41,071 nucleotides of DNA from Kagunavirus LF7074P1, in sequence record OZ035758.1, one strand, 5' to 3'. The translations under genes and the position numbers were made by a program. This document shows positions 13,031 to 36,311 of the stretch, in pieces (the stretch's first letter is position 1; every line of letters begins with the position of its first letter). Under the pieces are notes generated by a model. The model was not told where the DNA came from and ran no database searches. It saw nothing but the letters and a program-made list of their open reading frames with translations.

Positions 13031-13059
13031 ATAGTACCCTATTATATTGGGGTGTGCAA
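13031..13059 (-). promoter_or_regulatory. Sigma70-like promoter P3 (TTGCAC-17-TACTAT) driving the minus-strand cassette
   Basis: Minus strand reads TTGCACaccccaatataatagggTACTATtca, near-identical to promoter P1 at 35039. Confidence 0.6.
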
Positions 13060-13167
13060 GTAATGTGATAGAATAAGTTTGCGCCTAGTGTCGCACACGA
13101 AAAGCGGGTGGTTCCCGTCTGGCGCATTTATCGTTAACCTGTAACCTCTTAACCAAAGGATTAAAGA

Positions 13168-13584
13168 ATGAAACTTTCTGATTTTTATTTCGAAGAGAAA
13201 GCACTGGTAGGCAAGAAGATGCCCATTCTGCTGCCAAACGGCGAAGACTCCGGTGAATGGCTTAACGTTGTAAGTCCCGATGCGGATGTCGCCGTTAAAG
13301 CGGGGCGTGCTTTCATTATTGCGTACCGTCGCGGGTTGGCGCGTTTCGAAGAACTGGAAAAAGCCGCCAAAGAATCCGGCGACTATACTGAATATAACCT
13401 GGCTATTAACGAACTGGCGGAAGACCTCAACCGGCAACTCGCGGCAGAAGTCGTAAACGGCTGGAGCTTTGATGAGCCTTTCTCTAAAGAAGCATTTAAC
13501 AAATTGCTGGACCAGTTCAAGGCATTAGGCACACAGGTAGCAGCGTTCCATAACGCTGAGCGCAAAGCATTACAGGAAAAGTAG
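13168..13584 (+). CDS. Tail assembly chaperone (gpG-like)
   Basis: 138-aa acidic ORF with RBS aagga, immediately upstream of tape measure gene. Confidence 0.5.
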   Translation: MKLSDFYFEEKALVGKKMPILLPNGEDSGEWLNVVSPDADVAVKAGRAFIIAYRRGLARFEELEKAAKESGDYTEYNLAINELAEDLNRQLAAEVVNGWSFDEPFSKEAFNKLLDQFKALGTQVAAFHNAERKALQEK

Positions 13585-13616
13585 ACGCGCTGTACAGGTT
13601 CGCCACCTATGAGTTT

Positions 13617-13949
13617 GTGGATAAGCATAAAATCAGAGAGTTTGATTCTATAGCCGACGGACACGAACAGGCGCTTATCGCGATGGGTGTAATCGATAAG
13701 AAAAAACGTGCAGCGCGACGGGGTGGGCCAGAATGCCCGCCCCTTTTTATATCCACCTTCGAGACGTACTGCGACATTAAGTTTACGCGACACGTGCGCG
13801 AGGACGCTGTAGTATTGTTCGCAAGAGAATCCGTTACGTGGCAAGACCTGAAAGCCTATCTCGATGTTACGCAAAAACAGCTTAGCCTGTTCGAGATAGA
13901 CATTATCATGGGCTTAGAAGCAATCTTTGAAGGTAGAAATCATGGCTGA
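13617..13949 (+). CDS. Second tail chaperone ORF, possibly expressed as a -1 frameshift extension (gpGT-like)
   Basis: The -1 frame is open from 13560 to 13949; no RBS or ATG for independent initiation (track start is GTG 13617); the tape measure start overlaps its 3' end. Confidence 0.4.
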   Translation: MDKHKIREFDSIADGHEQALIAMGVIDKKKRAARRGGPECPPLFISTFETYCDIKFTRHVREDAVVLFARESVTWQDLKAYLDVTQKQLSLFEIDIIMGLEAIFEGRNHG

Positions 13950-16215
13950 TACCGCTAGCTTGATCGTACGAGTATCATCGACCGGCGTCGATAAAACCAC
14001 ATCACAACTGAACGGGCTTACCAAAGCCGCGGGGGCCGCCGCCGCTGCCGTTGTCAGTCTGGAAACTGCCAAACAGGTGTTCAGTGCGCTGGTGGACTCC
14101 CAGCGCAACTTCGATAAGCTGAACTCCGGCCTCATCACAATGACCGGGAGCGCCGAGAACGCTGCTAAGGCATTCAGCGTCCTGCAACAGTTCGCAAAAG
14201 AAACTCCGTATGGCCTCAATCAGGCGGTAGAGGGGTTTACCAAGCTCGTGGCGCTAGGTCTTAACCCCAGCAAAGAGGCGTTAATATCCTACGGCAACAC
14301 CGCGGCGGCTATGGGTAAAGACCTTAATCAGATGATTGAGGCGGTTGCCGACGCCAGTACCTTTGAGTTTGAGCGACTGAAAGAGTTCGGTATCAAGTCT
14401 TCCCAACAGGCGGATACCGTTTCGTTCACGTTCCGCGGCGTCACCACCACGGTTAAAAAGAACTCCGAAGAGATTCAGAAATACCTGCTAAACATCGGCA
14501 ACACCGATTTCGCCGGGGCGATGGAGACGCGCTCTAAGACGTTAGACGGTCAGTTGTCGAGCCTGGCGGACTCCTTTGATGGCCTTGTACTTGCGGTAGC
14601 GCAATCCGGTTTCGGCGACGCCGTAGGTGAGCAAGCCGCGAAGGCAGAAGACGCTATTTCGGCACTCACCGACGCCATTGCGTCTAATGAGATAGCCGCC
14701 ACGCTCCAGGATTGGGTGACACTGTTCAATGAATCATTCAAGTTTATTTCTGATGCCTTAAACGACCTGGCATACGATACCGAGGACAAATCCGCGGATA
14801 TGTCAGACTCGCTGGGTACTATACCGGATGCTATCCGTGAATGGTTGCCTGACATCCAGCAGACGTTTCACGAGGTTATTGCGTGGTTCCAGCGCATTGA
14901 CGATTACGCCGTAGCGTTAGGTCAGACCCTCGCAGACGTGTTTGATCCGAGCAAAACGGCAGCACTCACATTTAAAAACCTGACCGCAGAAGCTGACGCC
15001 GCATACGCCGCCAGCATAAAACGCGCCGAGGCCGAATCACAGGCCATCACCAACAGGTCTAAGCAGCGTAAGAAAGAAATTGAGGAACAGCGCAAGCAGT
15101 ACAACGAGCGTAAGAAGCAAGAAATAGACTTAGCCAGCCTTGTTAATAAAAAGGGCGGAACTGGTGGGGCAGGAAATGCCAACGACAAAGACGCGAAAGC
15201 CGCCGCTAAGAAAGCGGAGCAATTGCGCAAACAAGCCCAGGATTACCTCGACACTTTGGCCCGTCAGAACAACGACGAGTTAAAGGCTATCGACGCGCAG
15301 GAACAGCAGAAACTGGCTAAGGCAAAAGAGTTCTACAGCCAGGGCGCGTTGTCCCTGAAAGAATATGAACAAGCTAAAACAGCTATCGTCCTCGAAGCCG
15401 GGCAAAAACGACAAGATGAACTGGATAAACGCCAGAAAGAAGCCCAGGAAAAGCAACAGAAAGGTGACGACTTCATGGCTCAGATTATGGGTCAGAACGC
15501 TACTGAGCTTGAGCTTCTCGACATCCAGGAACAGCAGAAACTGGCGGTAGCGGATAAGTACCGCGAGCAGGGTTTTATTAGCGAGAAGCAGTATCAGGCC
15601 GCTCTTAACGCCATCAACGAGCAATACGCAACCAAACGTGCCGATGCAACGGCAACGGCCTTTGGTAACATGGCCTCAAACATCGGGTCTGCGTTGGGTG
15701 AGGCTTCTGGCGCGTACAAGGCATTCGCTATCGTACAGGCAACTATCGCCACGTACACCGCAGCTATTGAGGCGTACAAGTCAACGGCAGCTATCCCTGT
15801 AGTTGGCCCGTTCCTGGCCCCTGTAGCCGCTGCCGCTGCCGTTGGTGCAGGTATGGCGCAGGTTTCCGCTATCCGGTCCGCGCGTGAACAGGGCGGACAG
15901 TTATCCGCAGGGCAGGCTTCCACCATCGCAGAACGCGGTAAACCAGAAGTTATTATGCCGGCTGGCGCATCTCGTGTTCGCACAGCACAGCAGATGAAAG
16001 AAATTATGGGGCAAAACGGGTCTTCTTCCGGCCCGTCTAATGTTACTATCGTAAACAACACGAGTTCTCAAATCGGCAACGTATCCACTGAGCAAGATGA
16101 CGAAGGCCGTTTGCGAATCATCATCGAGGAGCAGGTGGCTGCCTCTTTGCAGAATAGCAACAGCAAGATTAGCAAGGCCCGCAAAGCCACAAGAAATGCG
16201 CCGGGGTTTAAATAA
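13942..16215 (+). CDS. Tail tape measure protein
   Basis: ~757 aa, Ala/Gln/Lys-rich helical repeats (DIQEQQKLA twice), long coiled-coil character; canonical position. Confidence 0.8.
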   Translation: MADTASLIVRVSSTGVDKTTSQLNGLTKAAGAAAAAVVSLETAKQVFSALVDSQRNFDKLNSGLITMTGSAENAAKAFSVLQQFAKETPYGLNQAVEGFTKLVALGLNPSKEALISYGNTAAAMGKDLNQMIEAVADASTFEFERLKEFGIKSSQQADTVSFTFRGVTTTVKKNSEEIQKYLLNIGNTDFAGAMETRSKTLDGQLSSLADSFDGLVLAVAQSGFGDAVGEQAAKAEDAISALTDAIASNEIAATLQDWVTLFNESFKFISDALNDLAYDTEDKSADMSDSLGTIPDAIREWLPDIQQTFHEVIAWFQRIDDYAVALGQTLADVFDPSKTAALTFKNLTAEADAAYAASIKRAEAESQAITNRSKQRKKEIEEQRKQYNERKKQEIDLASLVNKKGGTGGAGNANDKDAKAAAKKAEQLRKQAQDYLDTLARQNNDELKAIDAQEQQKLAKAKEFYSQGALSLKEYEQAKTAIVLEAGQKRQDELDKRQKEAQEKQQKGDDFMAQIMGQNATELELLDIQEQQKLAVADKYREQGFISEKQYQAALNAINEQYATKRADATATAFGNMASNIGSALGEASGAYKAFAIVQATIATYTAAIEAYKSTAAIPVVGPFLAPVAAAAAVGAGMAQVSAIRSAREQGGQLSAGQASTIAERGKPEVIMPAGASRVRTAQQMKEIMGQNGSSSGPSNVTIVNNTSSQIGNVSTEQDDEGRLRIIIEEQVAASLQNSNSKISKARKATRNAPGFK

Positions 16216-16715
16216 TGAGCGACTTATATTTCCCACGTAGCCTTAAGCCAATTGTATCGAAAGGCTACTCAATGACCAGACGTAACAACGTCTGGAGTGT
16301 AGATTTAGCCGGTGGCGGGGTGCGTCAGGGCCGTGACACGTATTACGACGTGTTCCCTGTTAGCGTAACCCTGATTACATCCGCAATGGGGCGACAGGCG
16401 TTTCTGTCGTTCCTCGAAAAAGTAGACGGCGGTGCGTCAAGTTTCTGGATGGCGCACGACTTCGGCATGGGCATCGAAGATTATCAGGTAACCATTACGT
16501 CCACTATCGCCGAGTCCACCGAAGACGGGATTAACTGGACAATCACCTTCACGGCAACCGCCGAGAAATCGCCGTTCCAGGACCTTGAGAACCAGTGCCT
16601 GATTAACAATCTGCCGGATTTGTACGGTTGCTATGGTGACGGGCTGGGGTGTTTCCTTAAAGCCTACGGAACTGCACAATCAACGTTTCCACGAATTTGG
16701 GACCCGATGCAATGA
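16215..16715 (+). CDS. Minor tail protein
   Basis: 166-aa ORF coupled to tape measure stop (TAATG). Confidence 0.5.
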   Translation: MSDLYFPRSLKPIVSKGYSMTRRNNVWSVDLAGGGVRQGRDTYYDVFPVSVTLITSAMGRQAFLSFLEKVDGGASSFWMAHDFGMGIEDYQVTITSTIAESTEDGINWTITFTATAEKSPFQDLENQCLINNLPDLYGCYGDGLGCFLKAYGTAQSTFPRIWDPMQ

Positions 16716-17227
16716 GCCAGGAATCAGTAGAAGCATCCTATCGCCGTAAGCTGGCGTCTAACCCGGACGGCGAGATGGACTACATCACGTTGCAAATCAG
16801 CCACCCGTTGCTATCAAAGACGTACTATCTTGTGCGCGGGCTACAGGAACTTACGGCAACACTGGAGACAGGCGAAACTATCACGTTTGAGCCAACCCCG
16901 ATGGAGGCGTCGGGGGCCGCTAACAATAGTGATATGGACCAGACGACGACGTTTACTCTACCGGATATTCTCAATCAACTGGACGATGAGATGGATAAAA
17001 TCCCGATGAGCAATACTGAGTTGCCGAAGTTCGTATTCCGCCGTTACGTCAGCACCGACCTGTCTTACCCGGCTGACGGCCCCGTCGTGTACGAGTTACA
17101 GGCCATCAACCAGGAGAAAGGCGAGTTTTCTGCGGATGTTGGTACGCCTATGCTGAACCAACGAAGCACTGGTATACTGATGACACCTAAAGAGATACCG
17201 TTATTACGCGGCCTGTTGACCACATGA
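16712..17227 (+). CDS. Minor tail protein
   Basis: ATG 16712 overlapping upstream stop (ATGA); 171 aa. Confidence 0.5.
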   Translation: MSQESVEASYRRKLASNPDGEMDYITLQISHPLLSKTYYLVRGLQELTATLETGETITFEPTPMEASGAANNSDMDQTTTFTLPDILNQLDDEMDKIPMSNTELPKFVFRRYVSTDLSYPADGPVVYELQAINQEKGEFSADVGTPMLNQRSTGILMTPKEIPLLRGLLTT

Positions 17228-17589
17228 ATATTAACGACTACACGGGCATACCTTACGACTTTCGCAAGCGCAATTGCTGGCATCACGTGCGCATTGTCCG
17301 CGCGGATGCCGGGCTAGATACTCCGGCGTTCGACGTTACAAGCCCGACGGCAATTAACGAAGCGTTTGACGAAGGCCACCGCAACACAAAAGGGCTTACG
17401 AAAATTGATAAGCCTGAAAACTTCTGTGCGGTGCTTATGGGGTATCGCCGTGGGGGTCGTATCGTGTGGCACGCAGGAGTTTACTTCGACGGGATGGTCA
17501 GCCATTGCGAGCTTGCCTCACGTCAGGTACGGCTTGACAGGCTGGCGGACCTCAGAGACACGTACACGGAGATTGAATTTTGGCGATAA
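17224..17589 (+). CDS. Tail assembly protein, gpK-like (possible NlpC/P60-type Cys-His)
   Basis: 121 aa with NCWHH near N-terminus and conserved His downstream; position after minor tail proteins. Confidence 0.45.
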   Translation: MNINDYTGIPYDFRKRNCWHHVRIVRADAGLDTPAFDVTSPTAINEAFDEGHRNTKGLTKIDKPENFCAVLMGYRRGGRIVWHAGVYFDGMVSHCELASRQVRLDRLADLRDTYTEIEFWR

Positions 17590-20135
17590 TCCTGCACTAC
17601 ACGCGAAACGCTGATGGAGCTTTCGACCGTACAAAACACGTCGGGATGCCGATGGAGTTTGTCGTTAACCGTATCCCTGACGGCGTGCCGGTGCGCGTCT
17701 ACCTCGGCGAGATTGGTGATGATACCGACGTAACTGACGACTTCGACGCACTCAAAGACGAAGACGCTGTGTACCACATTATTGAGGGTGCGGGTAGCGG
17801 GGCGCTCGGTGCGGTTAGTAAGGTGTTTGGTTTTATCCTTAAGCCAATCGCCAAGTTGTTTGGCCTGAACACGGCCGCCAACGCCAACTACACGGCGACT
17901 AACAACCAGACAACATCGCCTAATAACAGTCTCACAGACCGCTCAAACAAACCACGCCCTTACGAGCGCTCTTATGACATCTGCGGGACTGTGCAGACAA
18001 TCCCTAACGACCTGATGCAGACGTATAAAGCGTTCAACTCCACGGGTGCTTTGCTGGAGTATTCGTATTATGACGCGGGGCGCGGGCATCTGCATATTGA
18101 GGCTGATGGCGTAACGGAAGGCGACACCCTGATAAGCGACATCACAGGCTCCTCTGTAGCCGTGTATGCGCCGTATACTTCCCCGAACAACACCGCATCG
18201 CCCCAACTACAAATCGGCGACGTCATTGACCAGAAACTCTATGTGACATACTCCAACGACGACGTTGACGGTATTGTGCTGAAAGCGCCAAACGACATCG
18301 GAGCTAACCCAAGCGCCGACGGCACGGCTAAACGTATTTCAAACACCGGCTACATTTATGACCCGTCCGGCGACTCTGCTTTTTCTGAGTTTCTTAGCGT
18401 CGGTGATGTCGCGGTGTTGAGCAACTTTGACGTTGCTGATGTCACTAACCTGAACGGCTCGTTTGAGGTTTTATACGTTGACGACTTCGAAGTAAGATTA
18501 GCCGTAAACGGGGCGTCTAACTGGGCCGCGTTGACTAGCGGGCAGACGTACACGCTAACAGAGCGTTCAGATACGTTTATCGGCCCGAGCAACACCTACG
18601 ACGTATCCCTTACAGACTGGTATTACATGGTGCGTGGGGAAGTCGACCGTGTGCTCGCTAACGTAGCCGGGCAGAACGGCCTCTACAAATACGACGGCGG
18701 CTACAACCGCACCAGCGTAACCGTAGAACTCCAGTACCAGATGATTGATTCTCAGCGTAACCCGTTGAGCGATATCTACACGGTACAGGCCACAATTACC
18801 GGTAACAATACCGACTACGTCGGCACGTCTATTTACGGGCAGTTACCGACAGCATCGCGCTTCCGCGCCCGTATGCGCCGTATAACGAATTTCGATAAGG
18901 ATTACGACGGAACGGTAAGTGACGAAATAACATTCATCAACCTGTACGGGCAATCACTTGACACCACCCCCCACTACGGCAATAGGACAACGGTGCATTG
19001 CGCCCGTAAACAGACGCCGCGTGCGGCCAGTATAGACAACCCGGAACTGCGCATGATTGCAACCGAGATGTGTTACAAATATCTAGGTAACGGCGTATTT
19101 GATAGCGTAATGACACCGAACACCCGGGCCGTGCAGTCGCTAATCAGACTGGCTCGAGACCCTGCGGTGGGTAATCTGGAACTGACAACGGCAAATATGG
19201 ATAAGTTACTCGCTGTGCAGGAAGAAATTGAGTCCTATTTTGGCAGCGAATTAGCCGGACAATTCTGCTACACGTTCGACGACTACGACACCACGATGCA
19301 GGACGTCGTTCAGACTATAGCGGAAGCCGTGTTCTGTACTGCGTACCGTAAAGGCGCGGATATTATGCTGCGATTCGACCGTCCGGTTGCGGGGCCTGAA
19401 ATGGTGTTCACCCACCGCAGCAAAACTACCGGTACAGAGAAATGGACCCGCACGTTCAACGATTCGACAACCTACGATAGCCTGTCGTTCTCGTACATCG
19501 ACCCGGATACTAATGTACAGGAAACGATTTATATCCCGGAAGAACTCGGGGCAAATACAGAGGAATACGAATCGAAGGGCGTACGTAACTATCAGCAGGC
19601 GTATTGGCTGGCGTGGCGTCGCTATCAGCGCAATGCGTTAAGTAAAGTTGTCGTAGAGTTTGAAGCTACCGAAGAAGGTGCGCTCGCTACTCCAGGCGGT
19701 GTAATCAGCGTAGTTAAAGGCTCGCGTATTGCGCCACAGGACGGCTATGTTATTGCCGTTAATGGGCTTACGCTGACACTGTCGCAGCCTGTTACGTTCA
19801 CCCCCGGCGATGACCACTCCATCATTCTTAAGAAGCGCGACGGCTCTGTGCAGAGTATCTCTGTTATCAAAGGAAGCCACGACCGCGAAGTGATTATGCT
19901 TTCTGCCCCAGAGGAAGCAATCTACACAGGGAATAGCGCACTAAAAACTGAGTTTTCATTCGGCAACGAAGCAAGGCATAATGCTCAGAAGATAGTTGTT
20001 TCTTCAATCGACCCTGGCGACGACCGCACGGTCAAGATTACTGGCTACAACTATGACGACGGATTCTATAAATACGACGGCGTCGCGCCATACGGCAGCG
20101 GTTTCTCCGACGGATTCAGCAATGGTTTTAATTAA
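17580..20135 (+). CDS. Tail tip / host specificity protein (gpJ-like), N-terminal region gpI-like
   Basis: 851 aa; start codon uncertain (TTG 17580 after GGAG, or ATG 17643/17649); N-terminal GAGSGALGAVSKVFGFILKPIAKLFGL resembles the hydrophobic tail of gpI-type proteins. Confidence 0.55.
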   Translation: MAIILHYTRNADGAFDRTKHVGMPMEFVVNRIPDGVPVRVYLGEIGDDTDVTDDFDALKDEDAVYHIIEGAGSGALGAVSKVFGFILKPIAKLFGLNTAANANYTATNNQTTSPNNSLTDRSNKPRPYERSYDICGTVQTIPNDLMQTYKAFNSTGALLEYSYYDAGRGHLHIEADGVTEGDTLISDITGSSVAVYAPYTSPNNTASPQLQIGDVIDQKLYVTYSNDDVDGIVLKAPNDIGANPSADGTAKRISNTGYIYDPSGDSAFSEFLSVGDVAVLSNFDVADVTNLNGSFEVLYVDDFEVRLAVNGASNWAALTSGQTYTLTERSDTFIGPSNTYDVSLTDWYYMVRGEVDRVLANVAGQNGLYKYDGGYNRTSVTVELQYQMIDSQRNPLSDIYTVQATITGNNTDYVGTSIYGQLPTASRFRARMRRITNFDKDYDGTVSDEITFINLYGQSLDTTPHYGNRTTVHCARKQTPRAASIDNPELRMIATEMCYKYLGNGVFDSVMTPNTRAVQSLIRLARDPAVGNLELTTANMDKLLAVQEEIESYFGSELAGQFCYTFDDYDTTMQDVVQTIAEAVFCTAYRKGADIMLRFDRPVAGPEMVFTHRSKTTGTEKWTRTFNDSTTYDSLSFSYIDPDTNVQETIYIPEELGANTEEYESKGVRNYQQAYWLAWRRYQRNALSKVVVEFEATEEGALATPGGVISVVKGSRIAPQDGYVIAVNGLTLTLSQPVTFTPGDDHSIILKKRDGSVQSISVIKGSHDREVIMLSAPEEAIYTGNSALKTEFSFGNEARHNAQKIVVSSIDPGDDRTVKITGYNYDDGFYKYDGVAPYGSGFSDGFSNGFN

Positions 20136-20147
20136 AGAGGACTCTAT

Positions 20148-23102: not shown

Positions 23103-23105
23103 AAC

Positions 23106-23130
23106 TAAGGCCCCAAACGGGGCCTTTTCT
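23106..23130. terminator. Bidirectional intrinsic terminator between convergent tailspike and replication operons
   Basis: aggcccc-aaac-ggggcct hairpin with flanking A/T runs. Confidence 0.7.
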
Positions 23131-25203: not shown

Positions 25204-25398
25204 TCAACCCTTAATGTAGAGTACCAGCTCTTTACGCCCGAACGCCGTAACGTTACCCGTTACATCTTCGATAACCAGTTTACCGTTTGACTCGACGTAC
25301 ACCGTATCAACGGCAACAGGGTGGCGGGTCTTAACGTTGAAAATCATATCGCCAGGTACGATGTCACGTGCTGGTTTGCGGTCATATTCGTGTTTCAT
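25204..25398 (-). CDS. Hypothetical protein (64 aa)
   Basis: RBS AGGA 9 nt upstream; directly downstream of promoter P4. Confidence 0.4.
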   Translation of the reverse strand: MKHEYDRKPARDIVPGDMIFNVKTRHPVAVDTVYVESNGKLVIEDVTGNVTAFGRKELVLYIKG

Positions 25399-25428: not shown

Positions 25429-25716
25429 TTAACTATAATAGCCCGCTATTAGGTCGTCAACCTGTTTAAACGAACCAACGACAAAAACATTTGCACCACG
25501 TTTACGCATCCGCTCGTGCTCTCGTAACTGGTGCGGGTCCGGCTTCGTGTTTTCGTCTTTCTTAACCTCGACGAACCAGATGATGCCACCAGGGAGAATT
25601 ACCAGCAGGTCGGGGGCGCCCGCTCTATTTTCGTACGACAATTTGCGTACGAGGCCTCCCAGGGCCTCGAATCGCTCTTTTGCGTATTTCTGCACGCGCC
25701 CCTCAGGCGTACTCAT
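25429..25716 (-). CDS. VRR-NUC domain nuclease (PD-(D/E)xK)
   Basis: 95 aa; GAPDLLVI...WFVEVKK pattern; RBS GGGAGG. Confidence 0.6.
   Translation of the reverse strand: MSTPEGRVQKYAKERFEALGGLVRKLSYENRAGAPDLLVILPGGIIWFVEVKKDENTKPDPHQLREHERMRKRGANVFVVGSFKQVDDLIAGYYS
25432..25460 (-). promoter_or_regulatory. Sigma70-like promoter P4 (TTGACG-17-TATAGT), internal to replication operon
   Basis: Minus strand TTGACGacctaatagcgggctatTATAGT; shares the conserved core with P5 and P6. Confidence 0.5.
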
Positions 25717-28168: not shown

Positions 28169-28183
28169 TATTTTCGACCCTTA

Positions 28184-28210
28184 GTAAAAAGGCCCAATGA
28201 AGGGCCTTAG
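28184..28210 (-). terminator. Intrinsic terminator between SSB-like gene and DNA polymerase
   Basis: Minus strand aaggccc-ttcatt-gggcc followed by TTTTT. Confidence 0.65.
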
Positions 28211-28227
28211 TTAAATTGATTCAGATA

Positions 28228-28854: not shown

Positions 28855-28919
28855 AGTTCAGCCCTCATTAAGTTTAGATTTTCAGTTTACTCCGGGAAGC
28901 TGCCCGGCCAGTGATTAGA

Positions 28920-28948
28920 ACTATAATAGCTAACTATTCAGGTGTCAA
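28920..28948 (-). promoter_or_regulatory. Sigma70-like promoter P5 (TTGACA-17-TATAGT)
   Basis: Minus strand TTGACAcctgaatagttagctatTATAGT. Confidence 0.6.
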
Positions 28949-28952
28949 CACT

Positions 28953-30837: not shown

Positions 30838-30880
30838 AATCCCGACCCTCAGTTAAAGCGGCCCGAAGGCCGCGGGATAG

Positions 30881-31390: not shown

Positions 31391-31421
31391 TATTTATTCT
31401 CCTCTCGTTTGGTATGGGCTA

Positions 31422-31450
31422 ACTATAATAGCGAACTATTCACTTGTCAA
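31422..31450 (-). promoter_or_regulatory. Sigma70-like promoter P6 (TTGACA-17-TATAGT), leftward early promoter
   Basis: Minus strand TTGACAagtgaatagttcgctatTATAGT. Confidence 0.65.
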
Positions 31451-31474
31451 TGGGCTTTTCTAAAATAATTAATA

Positions 31475-31483
31475 TGGTACTAT
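31475..31483 (+). promoter_or_regulatory. Extended -10 promoter element (TGgTACTAT) for the XRE regulator gene
   Basis: TGn motif directly upstream of TACTAT; no convincing -35; about 30 nt upstream of ATG 31515. Confidence 0.4.
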
Positions 31484-31514
31484 TCACATATCAACTGACT
31501 AAGGAGTAATTGAC

Positions 31515-31730
31515 ATGCAACCATCTGAACTAGGCATCCGTGTAGAGCAACGCCGTAAAGAACTCGGTATCTCCCAGCGCCATCTGGCTGTCCTGGCCGG
31601 TGTTTCCCAAGGCGCGATTAACCAGCTGGCACTTGGAGTAACTCAGGACGTCCGCCCGGCGACGCTGTTTAAACTGGCGGAAGTGCTGGAAGTAGACGCC
31701 AAGTGGCTGGCGTTCGGTGAAGGGGCTTAA
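31515..31730 (+). CDS. XRE-family helix-turn-helix transcriptional regulator (Cro/CI-like)
   Basis: 71 aa; HTH ISQRHLAVLAGVSQGAINQLALG; RBS AGGAG 8 nt upstream. Confidence 0.7.
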   Translation: MQPSELGIRVEQRRKELGISQRHLAVLAGVSQGAINQLALGVTQDVRPATLFKLAEVLEVDAKWLAFGEGA

Positions 31731-31746
31731 CGCCCCTTTCTTTTTA
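31721..31746. terminator. Bidirectional intrinsic terminator
   Basis: aggggc-ttaac-gcccct hairpin followed by ttcttttt; XRE stop codon lies in the loop; convergent primase gene ends at 31748. Confidence 0.7.
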
Positions 31747-31747
31747 C

Positions 31748-33955
31748 CTATTCCAAATCCTCTTCTGTCACCACCAGCATTTCATTCGGTTCGTATATTG
31801 TCTTCGGTCTTAGTCTATCCCCTATTCTTTCAGGTATACGATACGTTCTCGGTACTACTTCGCCATTAGCATCACAGCCTAGCATTAGTTCACCATCTTT
31901 CAGCATTTTATCAAGATGGGTGTTAGTCACAGAAAAGTCACCGGAACGGGCCACTATCTGCTGCTGAGTAAAACCGCGACCTGTGTCATCTGACTGTTGC
32001 AGGTCTTCCAGTGCCGAAAGTATCGACTCCTTCCTTACTTCATCCCTGCCGCGTTTAACTTCTTCCTTTACTTTTTGTTTACCTTCGTTAGTTAACCCTT
32101 CTTCCCGCTCTTTCTCCTCGTCAGTTTTGAACGGCTCGAAGCCCCACGGCATCAGAACAAGCGCCTTGTGTGGTTCCGGCAGGTCGAGGTTTACGATTGT
32201 GCCGTATTCCTCTGTGCTGCCCAAGAACTCAACAGCACGGTACTCTTTCGGCGGTGGTGCTTCACGGAACTGTACAGACTCAAGTACCATGCCAACCGTT
32301 TTCTGTTGAGGCCCGTGCTTAAATTTCGAGTGGTATACGTTTATCTGACGGTCGGTTGCACGTTCTATTGTCAGTTCCACATCGACACCCGCATACAGCG
32401 CCCCGCTGCCACGGGCTTTCTTTCCGCCCTTCGGTGTATGGTGGACGACGCCCACCGCGGCTTTAGTTGCGTCACGTACTTCTTTAAGGATGGCGATAAC
32501 TTTACCCATGCCGATTGCCGTTGATGAACTGTTCTCGTCGAACTTATCAATCGTCATGGCCAGTGTCTGGTTAAGGGTGTCGAACGCAACCATCCCAATT
32601 GGCTCGTCACCCGCAGTTTCTCGCATTAGCTTAATCAGGCTTTTCAGTTTGCCAACTTCGCCCATATCGATGACATGTACATAATCTTTACCTTCCTCGC
32701 CGTATTTAGCCGCGAGTGCATCAATACGGGTGCGTGTGGCAGCACCGCCCTCACCGTCAATATAGAAATGGTGGCAACGCTGTGTATCAGCGCCTGCAAA
32801 CCGGTACCCGGCGGCGCTCAGGTACATCATACCCAGCGTATAGAATGATTTATATGTGCCGGATTCCCCGACGATGTCCCAGATGCAATCCGACGGCATG
32901 TACCCTTCAACGACGAAATCAGCCTTTACCGGTTCAGGTAACTCGTCATCGTCTTCAAGGTCTTCCAGTGTACAAGTTACAGGCTCCTCGTTCTCTGTGC
33001 GGTGCAGTTCTTCAATCTCTTCATCCGGTAAATCAGGCAGAGCCGCACGAATGCTGTTAATACTGATAGGTTGCTTGTCTACGTTAAGCTCGTCCGGAAG
33101 GCCGCACATACGCAGGGCCAAATGTTGTCGGCGGTTAAGCTCAGTGCAAGCACCGTTGTTTGTGTGCTGGCACACGAAGCGCACTTCTTTACCGTCGAGC
33201 ATGATGCTGGTGGAGCCTTTGCCGGTGTGCAGGTGTTCGTTAGGGCAAGGCACTTCGTACCCGCGACCGGAAGATAAAGCGTCAAGGCCAAGCTCCGCTT
33301 CGCAGAAATGCGCTATATCCGCGTTAAGCCCATGCTCATCGGCAGCAAGGGTCTTAGCTTCACGCTTACGCAACCCCATTTCTTCGGCTTTCTTGATGTA
33401 CCGCTCGGCACGGATAACACGCCCTTCTGTAACCGTTATCTTCGACTCTTTATGCGGCAGGTAGATAAGGCGGTTGCCATCTTCTGTGCAGTGGTCGCGC
33501 AATGCTTCGTCTATTTCTAACTCAGCACAAATAGCACGTTGCACCATCCACGCGTCGTTAGAGTTAAACGGCGTGCGGGCCGGTACAAGAACGCGGAAAG
33601 CGTAGTCACCGTTTTTACACGCGTGCTGGTGCGACGCCGTTGTGTGCAGAATATTGAAGAACGGCGCGTTCTTGAATTTGCGGGTGAGGTCGCGGTACTG
33701 GGTACGGTTTAGATGGTCGAAATCGAACTTAACCACACTGTCTTCCAGAATCGCGTTCTTACGGCGACCGCCAACCGGCGCAATAGCTTTCTGCTTAATC
33801 TTGGCCGCGTCGTACTCTTCCTTAGTCCATGACGGGTCTACGGACAGACGCTTCGATGTATCGCAGACATACTCTACAAACTGCTCCAGTGGCATTTCAC
33901 GGGCTACCGGGTTTTTATCGAAAGTGTTACGCAGCGTTGCAAAAACAATATTCAT
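31748..33955 (-). CDS. Primase-helicase fusion (AEP/PrimPol-type N-terminal domain, Zn-binding region, P-loop helicase C-terminal domain)
   Basis: 735 aa; N-terminal VKFDFDHL (DxD); Cys/His cluster CPNEHLHTGK...CQHTNNGAC; Walker A GESGTYKS. Confidence 0.7.
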   Translation of the reverse strand: MNIVFATLRNTFDKNPVAREMPLEQFVEYVCDTSKRLSVDPSWTKEEYDAAKIKQKAIAPVGGRRKNAILEDSVVKFDFDHLNRTQYRDLTRKFKNAPFFNILHTTASHQHACKNGDYAFRVLVPARTPFNSNDAWMVQRAICAELEIDEALRDHCTEDGNRLIYLPHKESKITVTEGRVIRAERYIKKAEEMGLRKREAKTLAADEHGLNADIAHFCEAELGLDALSSGRGYEVPCPNEHLHTGKGSTSIMLDGKEVRFVCQHTNNGACTELNRRQHLALRMCGLPDELNVDKQPISINSIRAALPDLPDEEIEELHRTENEEPVTCTLEDLEDDDELPEPVKADFVVEGYMPSDCIWDIVGESGTYKSFYTLGMMYLSAAGYRFAGADTQRCHHFYIDGEGGAATRTRIDALAAKYGEEGKDYVHVIDMGEVGKLKSLIKLMRETAGDEPIGMVAFDTLNQTLAMTIDKFDENSSSTAIGMGKVIAILKEVRDATKAAVGVVHHTPKGGKKARGSGALYAGVDVELTIERATDRQINVYHSKFKHGPQQKTVGMVLESVQFREAPPPKEYRAVEFLGSTEEYGTIVNLDLPEPHKALVLMPWGFEPFKTDEEKEREEGLTNEGKQKVKEEVKRGRDEVRKESILSALEDLQQSDDTGRGFTQQQIVARSGDFSVTNTHLDKMLKDGELMLGCDANGEVVPRTYRIPERIGDRLRPKTIYEPNEMLVVTEEDLE

Positions 33956-34080
33956 TTCTTTTTCTCCGCGCGTTCTAAGGCTTCCTGCATACGACGCATT
34001 GCGCGGTTCATCTTTACCGGTGCGAAGAAATCAGCGCCGTGTTTCTGGCGGCGCAACTGTGGAACTATTAACTTCGTCAT
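33952..34080 (-). CDS. Small basic hypothetical protein (42 aa), not in ORF track
   Basis: RBS AGGA 8 nt upstream of ATG; stop overlaps primase ATG (ATGA). Confidence 0.3.
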   Translation of the reverse strand: MTKLIVPQLRRQKHGADFFAPVKMNRAMRRMQEALERAEKKK

Positions 34081-34149
34081 TGTATAATCCTTGTGCTTAC
34101 TTTGATGATTTGTGCTTCGGCCCCGACGTTCTAGCGTTGGGGTTTCTTT

Positions 34150-34440
34150 TTACCGTTTAGCCAACTCTTCCAGCAAATTTTTATACTCTTCAAAATATTC
34201 CTCGACCAAATCATCGCCGAAATAGAAGTCGATATACTCGAGATTATCTCTTACGTTAAGCGACGCAGACATGGTGCTTAGTTGGCGTAAGCTAATTAGC
34301 TTCATTTCTGTTTCTACACAGAAAGGCCGGTAGGTATCGAGGTGGCAAGAGATGTTGAAGCATAAAGCGAACTCTCCCGCCACGGAGTGAACCATATACA
34401 CTTCGTTTTCTGCTTTATTGTGGAAAATTACACCTTTCAT
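34150..34440 (-). CDS. Hypothetical protein
   Basis: 96-aa acidic ORF coupled to upstream HTH gene (ATGA). Confidence 0.45.
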   Translation of the reverse strand: MKGVIFHNKAENEVYMVHSVAGEFALCFNISCHLDTYRPFCVETEMKLISLRQLSTMSASLNVRDNLEYIDFYFGDDLVEEYFEEYKNLLEELAKR

Positions 34441-34619
34441 TTCACATTCTCCTTAATCCATTCTTCAACTTTATTACGGTCAAATGTACCTGGTAAACGG
34501 CGACCCATAACCTTAATACAACAATCAGGGAATTTACCACTGCGCAACCAGTTATTAATTGTCTGACGTGTTACCCCAATACGCTCGGCTACTTCATTCT
34601 GGGTCATGTAATGTTGCAT
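34437..34619 (-). CDS. Small HTH DNA-binding protein (AlpA/excisionase-like fold suggested)
   Basis: 60 aa from ATG 34619 (RBS AGGAG 8 nt upstream); MTQNEVAERIGVTRQTINNWLRSGKFP. Confidence 0.5.
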   Translation of the reverse strand: MQHYMTQNEVAERIGVTRQTINNWLRSGKFPDCCIKVMGRRLPGTFDRNKVEEWIKENVK

Positions 34620-34650
34620 TTTTATATCTCCTGTTTGTTTGGTGAAGCTG

Positions 34651-34679
34651 AGTATAGGATAGCGGGAATGTAAAAGCAA
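34651..34679 (-). promoter_or_regulatory. Candidate sigma70 promoter (TTGCTT-17-TATACT) for the HTH/primase operon
   Basis: Read on the minus strand upstream of the 34619 start. Confidence 0.4.
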
Positions 34680-34716
34680 CCAATCCCTGCAATATTTAAT
34701 CTTTACAAAAAAGTTA

Positions 34717-34746
34717 TTGAAAGTTCTTGACACATGTTTGTATAAT
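34717..34746 (+). promoter_or_regulatory. Candidate rightward sigma70 promoter (TTGAAA-18-TATAAT)
   Basis: Consensus -10 TATAAT at 34741-34746; reads into a non-coding region containing a long hairpin. Confidence 0.4.
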
Positions 34747-34773
34747 GGTTTTGGGACTTGTATATATTACGGA

Positions 34774-34805
34774 GTTGACGAACCCTCCCTGAGGGATTCG
34801 TCAAC
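34774..34805 (+). other. Long perfect inverted repeat / stem-loop (GTTGACGAACCCTC-CCT-GAGGGATTCGTCAAC)
   Basis: ~14-bp perfect stem read directly from sequence; about 30 nt downstream of the candidate promoter at 34717. Confidence 0.7.
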
Positions 34806-34946
34806 CCCTCCCAGACAGCTGAGATGCTTGTTTTAGGGTTTAAGGATAAGTGTATCTAAATCTCATTTAAAGAAGTAACCCACTGAAATATCTACTGTTT
34901 CTTAATGTGCCGTAGATTCGCAACCGTAAAAATGTAACGATTATTG

Positions 34947-34972
34947 GGCAGGCTTAAGGCCTGCCCTTTAGT
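34947..34972 (+). terminator. Weak terminator-like hairpin
   Basis: gggcaggc-ttaag-gcctgccc stem followed by ttt. Confidence 0.35.
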
Positions 34973-35038
34973 TACCAAGTAATAAGAATAAAGGCACAAC
35001 CTTCCCCGAAGAATCACAACGGCAACGTAACTAATCTC

Positions 35039-35067
35039 TTGCACACCCCAACATAATAGGATACTAT
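35039..35067 (+). promoter_or_regulatory. Sigma70-like promoter P1 (TTGCAC-17-TACTAT), rightward early promoter
   Basis: TTGCACaccccaacataataggaTACTAT; conserved leader ...aaacgagacagaggag... to ATG 35102. Confidence 0.65.
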
Positions 35068-35101
35068 TCACTTATCGAAACGAGACAGAGGAGTGAGGGT
35101 T

Positions 35102-35284
35102 ATGTTTAAGAATGGTCAGTTGGTGAAAACAAAGCGCAGCCGGCAACACGTAATAGTTACCAAAGACGAGGATGAATATGGTGTTGTCGCCGTATTTAGC
35201 CTTATACGGAGGAAACATGGTTATGTTCGTCACGATAATTTAGAACTCATCGGCAACAATTTTAAATTCAAAGGGGCGAAGTGA
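35102..35284 (+). CDS. Hypothetical early protein (60 aa)
   Basis: ATG 8 nt after GAGGAG. Confidence 0.45.
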   Translation: MFKNGQLVKTKRSRQHVIVTKDEDEYGVVAVFSLIRRKHGYVRHDNLELIGNNFKFKGAK

Positions 35285-35469
35285 TGGGAGAATTAATTTA
35301 CGACGTATACGTCGACGGGGTCATAACAGAGACGACAAGTAATAAAGATTACGCAATAAAGCGGTATGTGTATTATGCCGCAGTGGTAGGAAGGATGGTA
35401 GAAGTGCGGGAGCAAACGGCATCGAATCATGATGCTCGTGCCGACGACTCTGAGGGAGGTTGCCGTTAA
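35284..35469 (+). CDS. Hypothetical protein
   Basis: ATG overlapping upstream TGA; RBS aagggg. Confidence 0.4.
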   Translation: MGELIYDVYVDGVITETTSNKDYAIKRYVYYAAVVGRMVEVREQTASNHDARADDSEGGCR

Positions 35470-35624
35470 TGCGAATCCGTATAACTGACCGCAGGCTTAT
35501 AGATTTCGGTATCTCGGTAGGTGATGTTTTTCTGGCGTTCAGCAGCAACCATTATGGTTTTATGATTGAGTACAAAGGGTCGTTATTGTTCGTGTATCGG
35601 GATGAATGTGAGGTTCTGGTATGA
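35469..35624 (+). CDS. Small hypothetical protein (51 aa), not in ORF track
   Basis: TAATG coupling to the upstream gene. Confidence 0.3.
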   Translation: MRIRITDRRLIDFGISVGDVFLAFSSNHYGFMIEYKGSLLFVYRDECEVLV

Positions 35625-35764
35625 GAGAAGCATTTGAACGGTGGGCTGTGGTCGAGGGTCTGCCGGTTAACAAGGGTTCAAAGAAAGAGTACCTGAACGT
35701 TAAGACCCGTCTCGCGTGGCGGGCGTTGAAAGCTGGTGTGTTGTCTGTTGCGAATCCGAGGTGA
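35621..35764 (+). CDS. Small hypothetical protein (47 aa), not in ORF track
   Basis: ATGA coupling; basic. Confidence 0.3.
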   Translation: MREAFERWAVVEGLPVNKGSKKEYLNVKTRLAWRALKAGVLSVANPR

Positions 35765-35767
35765 GAT

Positions 35768-35968
35768 ATGAGCGAGTGGATTAAGTGTAGTGAGATGCTG
35801 CCAGGTAATGGGTATACGGATAAAGAGTTCCTGGTGTATGAAACGTTAAATAACGCAGTTCAGCACGATTATTACATAGTTCCTGATGACGGGAGAAAGC
35901 CTTTCTGGAATCACTACGATAAGTACGTGACGCACTGGATGCCGTTACCCGAGCCGCCAGAAGTGTGA
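35768..35968 (+). CDS. Hypothetical protein, DUF551-like C-terminus
   Basis: 66 aa ending THWMPLPEPPEV, a motif recalled from a widespread enterophage protein family. Confidence 0.45.
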   Translation: MSEWIKCSEMLPGNGYTDKEFLVYETLNNAVQHDYYIVPDDGRKPFWNHYDKYVTHWMPLPEPPEV

Positions 35969-36101
35969 TGTTCAATAGTTTGGGATCTTACTGAGTGACT
36001 TACGCTGCTACACAGCAGCGTACAACTTTAACTTAGTGTCGTCAAAGGCGACACTTTCATCAAACGCAACAATCGAAGCGACTATTGCAGGAGATGCAAC
36101 A

Positions 36102-36275
36102 ATGATTACTAAAGAACAGGCTGAACGACTAATCACGTTAATCGACACGATGATTGACGTAAAAACCGATTTAGCAACGGCAACAGAGGAATCCGCTACC
36201 TGGTCGCTTGAAGAAAGAGAAGCAGAAGCGGAAAGGGAGTTACTGGCGTTCATCGACTCTATAACACACCAATAA
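36102..36275 (+). CDS. Hypothetical acidic protein (57 aa)
   Basis: ATG 36102 8 nt after AGGAG (track ORF starts further upstream at 36036). Confidence 0.4.
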   Translation: MITKEQAERLITLIDTMIDVKTDLATATEESATWSLEEREAEAERELLAFIDSITHQ

Positions 36276-36282
36276 AATTTAC

Positions 36283-36311
36283 TTGCACACTAAGATAGAA
36301 TAGGCTACTAT
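36283..36311 (+). promoter_or_regulatory. Sigma70-like promoter P2 (TTGCAC-17-TACTAT)
   Basis: TTGCACactaagatagaataggcTACTAT; conserved leader ...aaacgagaggggag... to ATG 36343. Confidence 0.65.

What the first reader, a model, noticed from the sequence alone, without database searches (positions are those of the whole stretch)
13031..36311. Conserved ~20-bp core element (ATAATAG-S-N1-3-ACTATTCA) shared by at least seven promoters and used in two architectures
In P1 (35039), P2 (36283), P3 (13031, minus) and the XRE promoter (31475) the element supplies the -10 (TACTAT) with TTGCAC 17 bp upstream. In P4 (25432), P5 (28920) and P6 (31422) the same element lies on the opposite strand relative to transcription, forming the -10 (TATAGT) and spacer with TTGACA 17 bp away. 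Several leaders also share ACGAGA just before the RBS. This degree of conservation beyond the sigma70 hexamers suggests a common regulator binding site (candidates: the XRE protein at 31515 or the HTH proteins at 34437 and 40100) or a phage-specific promoter class.
Basis: seen in the sequence. Interest (0 to 1): 0.55.

Follow-up and report, generated by a model that had tools for sequence, protein, structure and literature searches.

The report
Shared repressor-binding palindrome in phage promoters
At least seven promoters of this virulent E. coli phage carry the same small palindrome (AATAG-N4-CTATT), which looks like the binding site of the phage's own Cro-like repressor; this is a classical kind of switch, and the motif had been published before but mislabelled as a phage-polymerase promoter.

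Summary
The window is the whole genome of Kagunavirus LF7074P1, a virulent E. coli siphophage of the Guernseyvirinae. The shared core is an imperfect palindrome, (T)GAATAG-N4-CTATTC(A). It occurs exactly six times and once with one mismatch, at the seven named promoters, and two weaker copies overlap -35 boxes at 38831 and 4444. It is the commonest 5-N-5 palindrome in Kaguna- and Jerseyvirus genomes.

The palindrome sits in three registers relative to the sigma-70 hexamers: centre -12.5, -18.5 and -33.5. Across about 50 relatives, half-site bases outside the hexamers are as conserved as the hexamers, while the central 4 bp and the rest of the spacer vary. Other lineages keep the same architecture with symmetrically changed half-sites: TAATAG, TAATAC and TATTAG.

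The best explanation is an operator for a phage-encoded dimeric repressor. The most likely protein is the 71-aa XRE at 31515-31730, which is 434-Cro-like and flanked by two operators. It would turn down early and replication promoters and its own promoter. Binding has not been shown.

The motif was already reported by PHIRE in three genome papers, one of which ascribed it to a phage RNA polymerase; these phages have none. Verdict: a new member of a known kind, of moderate interest.

The parts
13030..13043 (-). Operator O-P3 (AATAGGGTACTATT on the minus strand) inside class A promoter P3. The -35 TTGCAC is at 13059-13054 and the -10 TACTAT at 13036-13031. The palindrome centre is about -12.5. 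P3 drives the Imm-like gene 12809-13015 and the exonuclease operon.
25437..25450 (-). Operator O-P4 in the spacer of class B promoter P4. The -35 TTGACG is at 25460-25455 and the -10 TATAGT at 25437-25432. Centre -18.5. P4 drives 25204-25398 and the helicase operon, and lies in the 3' end of the resolvase ORF.
28925..28938 (-). Operator O-P5 in class B promoter P5. The -35 TTGACA is at 28948-28943 and the -10 TATAGT at 28925-28920, an 11/12 match to consensus. P5 drives the Gp2.5-like SSB and DNA polymerase genes.
31427..31440 (-). Operator O-P6 in class B promoter P6. The -35 TTGACA is at 31450-31445 and the -10 TATAGT at 31427-31422, an 11/12 match. P6 is divergent from the XRE gene.
31471..31484 (+). 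Weaker operator O-Pxre (AATATGGTACTATT, 1 mismatch) over the -10 (TACTAT, 31478-31483) of the XRE gene's own weak promoter. It lies 44 bp centre to centre from O-P6.
31515..31730 (+). XRE / 434-Cro-like gene (71 aa), the candidate regulator. It is monocistronic and is followed by a terminator-like hairpin at 31719-31740.
35055..35068 (+). Operator O-P1 in class A promoter P1. The -35 TTGCAC is at 35039-35044 and the -10 TACTAT at 35062-35067. P1 drives small early genes from about 35093.
36299..36312 (+). Operator O-P2 in class A promoter P2. The -35 TTGCAC is at 36283-36288 and the -10 TACTAT at 36306-36311. A 48-nt stretch is 77% identical to P1.
38831..38844 (+). One-mismatch site ACTAGTTGACTATT centred on the -35 box of promoter TTGACT(38836)-17-TATATT(38859-38864), a 10/12 match. 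Centre -33.5 (class C). It is conserved in Jersey phage as AATAGTTGACTAGT.
4444..4457 (+). Weak one-mismatch site AATAGTTTACTTTT over the -35 box (TTTACT) of a TG-extended promoter (-10 TAAGCT, 4472-4477). Membership is uncertain.

Best explanation
The element is an operator embedded in ordinary host sigma-70 promoters. It is a 16-18 bp two-fold symmetric site, TGAATAG-N4-CTATTCA. The likely binder is a dimer of a phage-encoded helix-turn-helix protein, most probably the 71-aa 434-Cro-like XRE protein (31515-31730).

Every copy overlaps the -10 box, the spacer or the -35 box. An occupied site would therefore exclude RNA polymerase. On infection, host polymerase fires all these promoters: P1 and P2 for small early genes, and P3-P6 for replication and recombination genes. 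XRE is made from its own weak promoter and accumulates. It then turns these promoters down, and at higher concentration turns down its own promoter through the weaker site O-Pxre. This is a Cro-like shut-off and autoregulation circuit with no CI partner.

Shown here: the sites, their symmetry, their registers, their selective conservation, the lineage variants, and the fold and family of XRE. Inferred: that XRE is the binder, that binding represses, and the timing.
For: 1. The palindrome AATAG-N4-CTATT has 6 exact copies, and 11 at <=1 mismatch against 0.94 expected. It is the top palindrome in the window, in Bas72 and in Jersey phage. It is also top in every group of Kaguna- and Jerseyvirus loci, at 3-5.7 copies per ~20-kb locus.

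2. It occurs in three registers in one genome (centres -12.5, -18.5, -33.5) and in both orientations. The orthologous P3 site in Jersey phage is shifted by 3 bp. This argues against recognition by RNA polymerase or a sigma factor, and for an independent protein site that occludes the core promoter.

3. Footprint in 25-42 unique orthologues of each of seven promoters. Half-site positions outside the hexamers vary in 1.5% of sequences, and hexamer positions in 2.9%. The central N4 varies in 19% and the other spacer positions in 12% (half-sites vs N4 plus spacer, Mann-Whitney p = 5e-10). The alignment anchored on the XRE start codon shows the same pattern.

4. Other lineages keep the same architecture with symmetric half-site changes:
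- Kagunavirus TGAATAG versus Jerseyvirus TTAATAG/GTAATAG.
- L052 has AATAC-N4-GTATT, 4 sites against 0.37 expected.
- L066 and L075 have ATTAG-N4-CTAA[A/T], 5 sites against 0.18 expected.
Each of these lineages has a diverged XRE at the same syntenic position.

5. XRE matches Pfam HTH_3 at 2e-11. Its best solved homologue is 434 Cro over the full length (E 5.5e-7). The AlphaFold2 model has five helices, and its top Foldseek hits are the 434 repressor N-terminal domain, 434 Cro, SinR, HipB, C-proteins and P22 c2. From my own knowledge, these proteins bind 14-18 bp palindromes with uncontacted central bases.

6. The XRE gene sits between two copies of the site. Their spacing keeps helical phase across lineages: 43-45, 55 and 65 bp. 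A terminator-like hairpin follows the gene directly.

7. The other HTH candidates do not fit. HTH_17 was found only in Kaguna- and Jerseyvirus, and NinH is too conserved to follow the operator changes.
Against: No binding or transcript data exist for any of this. The residues of XRE helix 3 do not map cleanly onto the half-site variants. phiEap-2 (SQGRVSH) keeps only degenerate AATA[C/G/T] sites. VSiP and the W and Z lineages have an XRE but weak or no palindromes. The lineage covariation is confounded with phylogeny, so any lineage-specific factor would give the same pattern.

Close homologues of this XRE are found only on Kagunavirus-type contigs, so there is no independent genomic context to test the pairing. 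The only RNA-seq study of a Kagunavirus is coarse. It puts the gene that I infer, from gene order only, to be XRE in the 'middle' class, and it reports no clear early shut-off. The footprint statistic treats alignment columns and related sequences as independent.
Confidence: 0.6

Rival explanations
1. The palindrome is an operator, but for a different protein. That could be a host transcription factor shared by E. coli and Salmonella (for example a TrpR-like factor; the trp operator ACTAG-TTAA-CTAGT has the same 5-4-5 layout), or another small phage protein.
For: Kaguna- and Jerseyvirus infect related hosts and share the core AATAG-N4-CTATT although their XRE proteins are only ~50% identical. 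The site at 38831 carries one exact ACTAG half. The mapping of XRE helix 3 onto the operator variants is not clean.
Against: The extended half-site does differ between Kaguna- and Jerseyvirus, G versus T at the outer position. Other lineages carry symmetric variants. The sites flank the XRE gene in every lineage where they are seen. HTH_17 and NinH do not fit. AATAG differs from the trp half-site at a base that, from my own knowledge, matters for TrpR. No host genome was scanned.
Confidence: 0.15
2. No dedicated regulator exists. The similarity reflects duplicated promoter-leader cassettes, together with polymerase-related constraints such as back-to-back -10-like boxes (TATTAT / TACTAT) that give bidirectional promoters.
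For: P1 and P2 share 48 nt at 77% identity and P1 and P3 are nearly identical over ~40 nt, including leaders. Both half-sites resemble -10 boxes. Class A cassettes accompany inserted accessory genes in relatives, for example Bas72 at 5138.
Against: In class B the promoter-distal half-site (TGAATAG at -27 to -21) lies far from any -10 box, yet it is as conserved as the hexamers, while neighbouring spacer bases vary and even carry an indel. The symmetric lineage changes to AATAC/GTATT and ATTAG/CTAAT keep the dyad while making the -10 match worse. The class C copies sit on -35 boxes.
Confidence: 0.12
3. The element defines a phage-specific promoter class under positive control. It would be recognised by a phage RNA polymerase, a phage sigma factor, or an activator that recruits host polymerase. 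This is the published PHIRE reading.
For: PHIRE-based genome papers list the motif among phage promoters or phage regulatory elements. One gives seven 'phage RNAP promoters' with consensus tgAATAGTa-ccTATTat-T. Class A promoters match the sigma-70 consensus poorly (7-8 of 12) and might need help.
Against: Annotated relatives have no RNA polymerase or sigma gene. Class B promoters are near-consensus sigma-70 promoters with optimal 17-bp spacers. The element has no fixed register or orientation. Centres at -12.5 and -18.5 lie inside the polymerase footprint, where activators other than MerR-type do not act, and the spacers are not the long ones that MerR-type activation needs.
Confidence: 0.08

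Closest known systems
Phage 434 Cro / 434 repressor with the OR and OL operators (and P22 c2/Cro)
   Same: The protein is a small five-helix HTH_3 protein of the same length as 434 Cro (71 aa). 434 Cro is its best sequence match in the PDB, and the 434 repressor N-terminal domain and 434 Cro are its best fold matches. The operators are palindromic, with conserved outer half-sites and a variable central 4 bp, and they overlap core promoters. The regulator gene sits in a divergent promoter region with a site on its own promoter. The Gln at the first position of helix 3 is invariant, and so is the A at half-site position 1. From my own knowledge this parallels the Gln28-A1 contact in 434.
   Different: The annotated relatives show no CI-type partner, integrase or lysogeny module. 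Each promoter carries a single operator, and seven to nine promoters around the genome carry one, instead of two clusters of three. The half-site sequence differs (GAATAG versus ACAA / TTAAG). The phage is virulent.
Controller (C) proteins of restriction-modification systems (C.AhdI, C.BclI, C.PvuII)
   Same: These are stand-alone XRE dimers of ~70-80 aa with the same fold (Foldseek hits). They time gene expression through palindromic boxes that overlap promoters, including their own (own knowledge).
   Different: C-boxes have a different sequence and occur as one paired site per system. C-proteins first activate and then repress one operon. Here there are many dispersed single sites and no evidence of activation.
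Dispersed operator regulons of phage repressors (P1 C1 operators; mycobacteriophage L5 gp71 'stoperators')
   Same: One phage-encoded repressor has many copies of a short site spread over the genome at or near promoters (own knowledge).
   Different: Those sites are asymmetric, the proteins bind them as monomers, and they maintain lysogeny. Here the sites are dyads and the phage has no lysogeny functions.
PHIRE 'phage-specific promoters / regulatory elements' reported for Kaguna- and Jerseyviruses (fBC-Eco01, VB_EcoS-Golestan, SGP-C)
   Same: It is the same motif: tgAATAGTa-ccTATTat-T in seven copies (PMC9825357) and TAATAGTACCCTATTATGTT (PMC8790156). VB_EcoS-Golestan also has seven PHIRE promoters (PMC7203180), but their sequences were not read here.
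   Different: The fBC-Eco01 paper ascribes the motif to a phage-encoded RNA polymerase; the SGP-C paper calls it a phage-specific regulatory element. None of the passages read mentions the dyad symmetry, the three registers, the link to the XRE gene or the lineage variants.

Membership tests
Host sigma-70 promoters | -35 and -10 hexamers close to TTGACA/TATAAT with a 16-18 bp spacer | tested here: met
   P5 and P6 score 11/12, and P4 and the promoter at 38836 score 10/12, with 17-bp spacers. Class A (TTGCAC-17-TACTAT) scores only 7-8/12 and was not listed. The Jersey phage counterpart has TTGACA-18-TACTAT.
Host sigma-70 promoters | Position upstream of co-oriented genes, with mapped transcription start sites | not testable with these tools
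   Each site precedes a co-oriented gene with a Shine-Dalgarno sequence. The predicted leaders are 19-27 nt for six of them; the leader search failed for P5, P6 and 4449. No 5'-end data are available.
434-Cro / XRE-type repressor-operator pair | Two-fold symmetric operator with conserved half-sites and an unconstrained centre | tested here: met
   The layout is 5-4-5 (extended 7-4-7). Half-site positions vary in 1.5% of sequences against 19% for N4.
434-Cro / XRE-type repressor-operator pair | Operator overlaps the core promoter so that binding excludes RNA polymerase | tested here: met
   The centres are at -12.5, -18.5 and -33.5. The repression itself is inferred.
434-Cro / XRE-type repressor-operator pair | Cognate small HTH_3 protein with a Cro/repressor fold encoded next to the operators, including one on its own promoter | tested here: met
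   Pfam HTH_3 at 2e-11. 434 Cro at E 5.5e-7. Foldseek top hits are the 434 repressor and 434 Cro. Sites lie at 31427 and 31471, flanking Pxre.
434-Cro / XRE-type repressor-operator pair | Specific binding of the protein to the site | not testable with these tools
   This needs EMSA, footprinting or ChIP. No modelling of protein-DNA complexes is available here.
434-Cro / XRE-type repressor-operator pair | Co-variation of operator sequence with the protein's recognition helix | tested here: inconclusive
   Four half-site variants follow four XRE lineages. No residue-to-base rule emerges, and the phiEap-2, VSiP, W and Z lineages are weak or unclear. The signal is confounded with phylogeny.
Lambdoid immunity region (CI-Cro switch of a temperate phage) | CI-type repressor with a cleavable C-terminal domain, plus integration functions | tested here: not met
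   The annotated relatives show no CI-like repressor or integrase. The gene divergent from XRE encodes an acidic 169-aa protein with no Pfam match and a PHROG family of unknown function.
Phage-RNA-polymerase promoters (the PHIRE reading in the literature) | A phage-encoded RNA polymerase, and a fixed register and orientation of the motif relative to the start site | tested here: not met
   The annotated relatives have no RNA polymerase gene. The motif occurs in three registers and both orientations.

The most novel reading that the evidence does not exclude
The Cro-like XRE protein could be the single master timer of a strictly virulent phage family. It would shut off all early and replication promoters through sites at -12.5 and -18.5. 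It would also switch on late promoters through sites that straddle the -35 box (38831, 4444) or lie about -44 from the divergent tail-gene promoter next to P3. In addition, the diversification of operator specificity among these virulent phages (GAATAG, TAATAG, TAATAC, TATTAG) could serve competition between co-infecting relatives, by avoiding cross-repression. That would be an 'immunity' system without lysogeny.
Probability: 0.12. Interest if true: 0.7.

Novelty: new member of a known kind. Interest (0 to 1): 0.42.

Why it matters
Kaguna- and Jerseyviruses are widely isolated therapeutic and biocontrol phages and are used as engineering chassis (phage CM001 is cited for this in PMC11990801). 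Their transcription programme is unknown. One published annotation ascribes this motif to a phage RNA polymerase that these phages do not have.

Reading the motif as an operator set gives a concrete regulatory map: seven to nine promoters, one candidate repressor, and natural specificity variants. That map could guide where to insert payload genes, supply small orthogonal repressor-operator pairs, and allow a test of whether virulent phages diversify repressor specificity. Conceptually it is a classical Cro-type circuit, so the surprise is moderate.

Tried and rejected
1. I looked for a residue-to-base rule between XRE helix 3 and the half-site variants and found none.

2. I looked for the same XRE in unrelated genomic contexts, to test the pairing independently. 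The search for homologous proteins returned only Kagunavirus-type contigs.

3. Palindrome counting with one mismatch and no normalisation was swamped by GC-rich, codon-derived patterns and was uninformative for the weaker lineages.

4. My first promoter-class classifier mis-oriented many sites. I replaced it with orthologue sets found by blastn of the 134-bp promoter regions.

5. The K1B4 RNA-seq paper gives only coarse classes, and the supplementary table I opened was the host genome, so it gave no promoter-level data.

6. I considered HTH_17 and NinH as the binder and rejected both on their distribution and conservation.

7. I considered a phage RNA polymerase or sigma promoter class and rejected it.

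8. Rfam and tRNA scans of the window were empty.

9. The Cornellvirus (VSiP) pattern TATTAG-N4-[C/G]TAATA is too weak to count as a clean variant (4 hits against 1.4 expected).

Full report
**Identity of the window.** The window is 100% identical to Kagunavirus LF7074P1 (OZ035752.1, 41,072 bp). It is about 90% identical to many E. coli Kagunavirus phages and more distantly related to several hundred Salmonella Jerseyvirus genomes. It is therefore the whole genome of a small virulent siphophage of the subfamily Guernseyvirinae. Annotated relatives (Bas72; Jersey, VSiP and phiEap-2) give the gene map. Structural genes lie on the plus strand. Three leftward clusters encode replication and recombination genes. 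A rightward block of small genes is followed by the lysis genes. These annotations list no integrase, no CI-type repressor and no RNA polymerase.

**Check of the observation.** The literal consensus matches four of them, against none expected. What all seven share is a palindrome, AATAG-N4-CTATT. It has six exact copies (13030, 25437, 28925, 31427, 35055, 36299), and the XRE promoter copy (31471) has one mismatch. At <=1 mismatch there are 11 hits, against 0.94 expected and at most 3 in 100 shuffles. A count of every 5-N(0-8)-5 palindrome, made without prior assumption, puts it first in the window, in Bas72 and in Jersey phage. It is also first in every group of Kaguna- and Jerseyvirus loci fetched around the XRE gene.

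- In P1, P2 and P3, TTGCAC lies 17 bp upstream of TACTAT, which overlaps the right half-site. The palindrome centre is at -12.5.
- In P4, P5 and P6, TTGAC[A/G] lies 17 bp upstream of TATAGT, and the whole palindrome sits in the spacer. The centre is at -18.5.

Two corrections are needed. The XRE promoter has no TTGCAC and only a weak -35. Class A promoters match the sigma-70 consensus only 7-8 of 12, whereas class B promoters score 10-11 of 12.

One-mismatch copies are centred on the -35 box of a good promoter at 38836 (TTGACT-17-TATATT) and, more weakly, of a TG-extended promoter at 4449. The leader motif AAACGAGA is shared by P1, P2 and P6. P3 and P4 share ACACCAACAAT instead.

**Is the conservation more than the hexamers require?** I collected orthologues of seven promoters from about 50 Kaguna- and Jerseyvirus loci by similarity of the whole 134-bp region. 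I then scored, per position, the fraction of unique sequences that depart from the majority base.
- Half-site positions that do not overlap a hexamer: 1.5%.
- Hexamer positions: 2.9%.
- The central four bases: 19%.
- The remaining spacer: 12%.

The difference between half-sites and N4 plus spacer gives Mann-Whitney p = 5e-10. Columns and related sequences are not independent, so that number is only indicative. An alignment of the P6/Pxre intergenic region anchored solely on the XRE start codon shows the same picture. In 36 unique Kagunavirus sequences the half-sites never change. The N4 and the two to four bases between the half-site and the -35 box change freely and include a one-base indel. 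In class B the promoter-distal half-site lies at -27 to -21, where RNA polymerase makes no base-specific contacts (own knowledge). Its conservation is therefore the clearest sign of a separate binding protein.

**Registers and orientation.** One genome uses the dyad at -12.5, -18.5 and -33.5. The orthologous P3 site in Jersey phage is shifted by 3 bp, to -15.5. An element read by a sigma factor, a phage polymerase or a face-specific activator should keep one register. A repressor only has to overlap the polymerase footprint.

**Lineage variants.** Related phage contigs keep the same promoter architectures and the same synteny (a homologue of the 169-aa protein, a divergent XRE gene, a primase). 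Their dyads, however, are changed symmetrically.
- Kagunavirus uses TGAATAG in 100 of 126 hexamer-free half-sites.
- Jerseyvirus uses TTAATAG or GTAATAG and never GAATAG.
- Contig L052 has AATAC-N4-GTATT at its P6-like, Pxre and class A promoters: 4 sites against 0.37 expected.
- L066 and L075 have ATTAG-N4-CTAA[A/T] at class A, class B and Pxre positions: 5 sites against 0.18 expected.
- phiEap-2 keeps a degenerate AATA[C/G/T]-N4-CTATT: 10 hits at <=1 mismatch against 0.67 expected.
- Cornellvirus VSiP shows only a weak TATTAG-type pattern.

Symmetric change of both halves, at several promoters at once, is what co-evolution of an operator with a dimeric protein produces. It is hard to explain by promoter duplication alone.

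**Which protein?** The 71-aa product of 31515-31730 matches Pfam HTH_3 (2e-11). Its best solved homologue is phage 434 Cro, aligned over the full length (E 5.5e-7). An AlphaFold2 model (mean pLDDT 79, five helices) finds the 434 repressor N-terminal domain, 434 Cro, SinR, HipB, the C-proteins C.BclI and C.AhdI, and P22 c2 as its top structural matches. From my own knowledge, all of these are dimeric palindrome binders, and the P22 and 434 operators have the same layout of outer half-sites around uncontacted central bases.

The gene is monocistronic. It has its own weak promoter, which carries the weaker site, and a hairpin terminator follows it. It is divergent from P6, which carries a perfect site. 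The spacing of this operator pair is 43-45 bp in Kagunavirus and L066, 55 bp in Jerseyvirus and 65 bp in L052. That is a constant helical phase.

XRE is present in every lineage examined. The HTH_17 protein (34437-34733) was found only in Kaguna- and Jerseyvirus and is absent from the complete phiEap-2 and VSiP genomes. NinH (40076-40336) stays 62-72% identical across lineages whose dyads differ.

Against a firm assignment, helix 3 differs between the lineages (Kagunavirus SQGAINQ, Jerseyvirus SQSLITH, L052 TQGGIGH, L066 SQGYISH, VSiP TQSAISH, phiEap-2 SQGRVSH) without an obvious residue-to-base rule. The first-position Gln is invariant, as is the A at half-site position 1. This parallels the Gln28-adenine contact of 434 (own knowledge) but proves nothing. 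Close homologues of this XRE occur only on Kagunavirus-type contigs, so no independent context could be used as a test.

**Proposed mechanism.** Host sigma-70 polymerase transcribes all of these units on entry. P1 and P2 drive small early genes. P3 drives a superinfection-immunity-like gene and an exonuclease. P4 drives a helicase. P5 drives the single-strand-binding protein and the DNA polymerase. P6 drives a gene of unknown function and an exonuclease. XRE accumulates from its weak promoter, occupies the dyads and excludes polymerase. Its own, poorer site gives negative autoregulation at higher concentration. Several structural-gene promoters lack a good dyad, for example the TG-extended promoter at about 13047-13074 for the tail genes. 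The sites, symmetry, conservation and protein family are shown. Binding, the sign of the regulation and the timing are inferred. I put this at about 0.6.

**Rivals.**
- A different binder, either a host factor or another phage protein, is rated about 0.15. The trp operator ACTAG-TTAA-CTAGT has the same layout and differs by one base per half (own knowledge).
- Promoter-cassette duplication together with back-to-back -10-like boxes is rated about 0.12. It explains the long P1/P2/P3 similarity. It does not explain the distal half-site in class B or the symmetric lineage changes.
- A phage-specific promoter class under positive control is rated about 0.08. It conflicts with the absence of a polymerase or sigma gene, with the near-consensus class B promoters and with the variable register.

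**Prior knowledge.** The motif is not new as a sequence. PHIRE found it in fBC-Eco01: seven 'phage RNAP promoters' with consensus tgAATAGTa-ccTATTat-T (PMC9825357). It was found in the Jerseyvirus SGP-C as TAATAGTACCCTATTATGTT (PMC8790156). Seven PHIRE promoters are also reported for VB_EcoS-Golestan (PMC7203180). None of the passages I read mentions the dyad symmetry, the registers or a link to the XRE gene, and the fBC-Eco01 paper ascribes the motif to a phage RNA polymerase that these phages lack. Searches for an operator or Cro interpretation in these genera found nothing. The one Kagunavirus RNA-seq study is too coarse to test the model.

**Verdict.** The regulator-site reading is supported and the promoter-class reading is not. 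This is a new member of a known kind: a Cro/XRE-type repressor-operator regulon, unusual in being spread over nearly all early and replication promoters of a virulent phage and in showing natural specificity variants. Interest is moderate (0.42). The most novel reading still open is that the same protein also activates late promoters and that the specificity variants serve competition between phages. I rate that at about 0.12.

Noticed in passing
window 4396-4442 and 5181-5225: There are clusters of GGAATAR repeats that include the palindrome GAATA-N3-TATTC (GGAATAAACTATTC at 4429; GGAATAATTTATTC-TTGACA at 5212). They lie just upstream of the spanin and scaffold genes. The arrangement is conserved in Kagunavirus, Jerseyvirus, Cornellvirus and phiEap-2. 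It may be the site of a second regulator, for late promoters.
   Followed up: partly
window 4449-4685: A TG-extended promoter-like site (TTTACT-17-TAAGCT) and a strong terminator hairpin (4658-4677) bracket about 200 nt without a convincing ORF. Bas72 annotates a 36-aa CDS at the corresponding place. The predicted RNA fold has z = -2.27, and Rfam gives no match. It may be a small RNA or a structured leader.
   Followed up: partly
window 31427-31484; L002 35812-35880; L052 2396-2474; L066 about 9850-9908: The two operators that flank the XRE promoter are 43-45 bp apart in Kagunavirus and L066, 55 bp in Jerseyvirus and 65 bp in L052. The steps are about one helical turn, so the phase is constant. 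This hints at cooperative binding or looping between the two sites.
   Followed up: partly
window 13030-13081: The P3 operator centre lies about 44.5 bp upstream of the presumed start of the divergent tail-gene promoter (TGaTAGAAT, 13066-13074). The corresponding distances are about -42.5 in Jersey phage, -44.5 in phiEap-2 and -54.5 in VSiP (read). This is near a class-II activator position. It is speculative, and the geometry may simply follow from the two overlapping -35 regions.
   Followed up: no
window 34734-35040: This non-coding stretch lies in the most AT-rich kilobase of the window (41% GC for 34001-35000) between the HTH_17 gene and P1. It holds a 15-nt inverted repeat (34771-34808, TTGACGAA/TTCGTCAA) and a GC-rich hairpin (34946-34966). 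Its function is unknown. It could be an origin or the control region of the leftward primase operon, whose promoter I could not place.
   Followed up: no
window 10574-10593, 23107-23126, 28190-28207: Hairpins of the type AAGGCCCC-N4-GGGGCCTT recur. The first two stand where convergent gene clusters meet, and the one at 10574-10593 is terminator-like on both strands.
   Followed up: no
L001 (Bas72) 5138-5151; fBC-Eco01 PP1 and PP2: Relatives carry extra class A promoter-operator cassettes in front of small accessory genes inserted among the head genes. The cassette therefore travels with moron-like genes.
   Followed up: no
Literature: PMC9825357, PMC7203180, PMC8790156: Published genome notes list this dyad among PHIRE phage promoters or phage-specific regulatory elements, and the fBC-Eco01 paper ascribes it to a phage-encoded RNA polymerase. 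Annotated phages of this subfamily have no RNA polymerase gene.
   Followed up: yes
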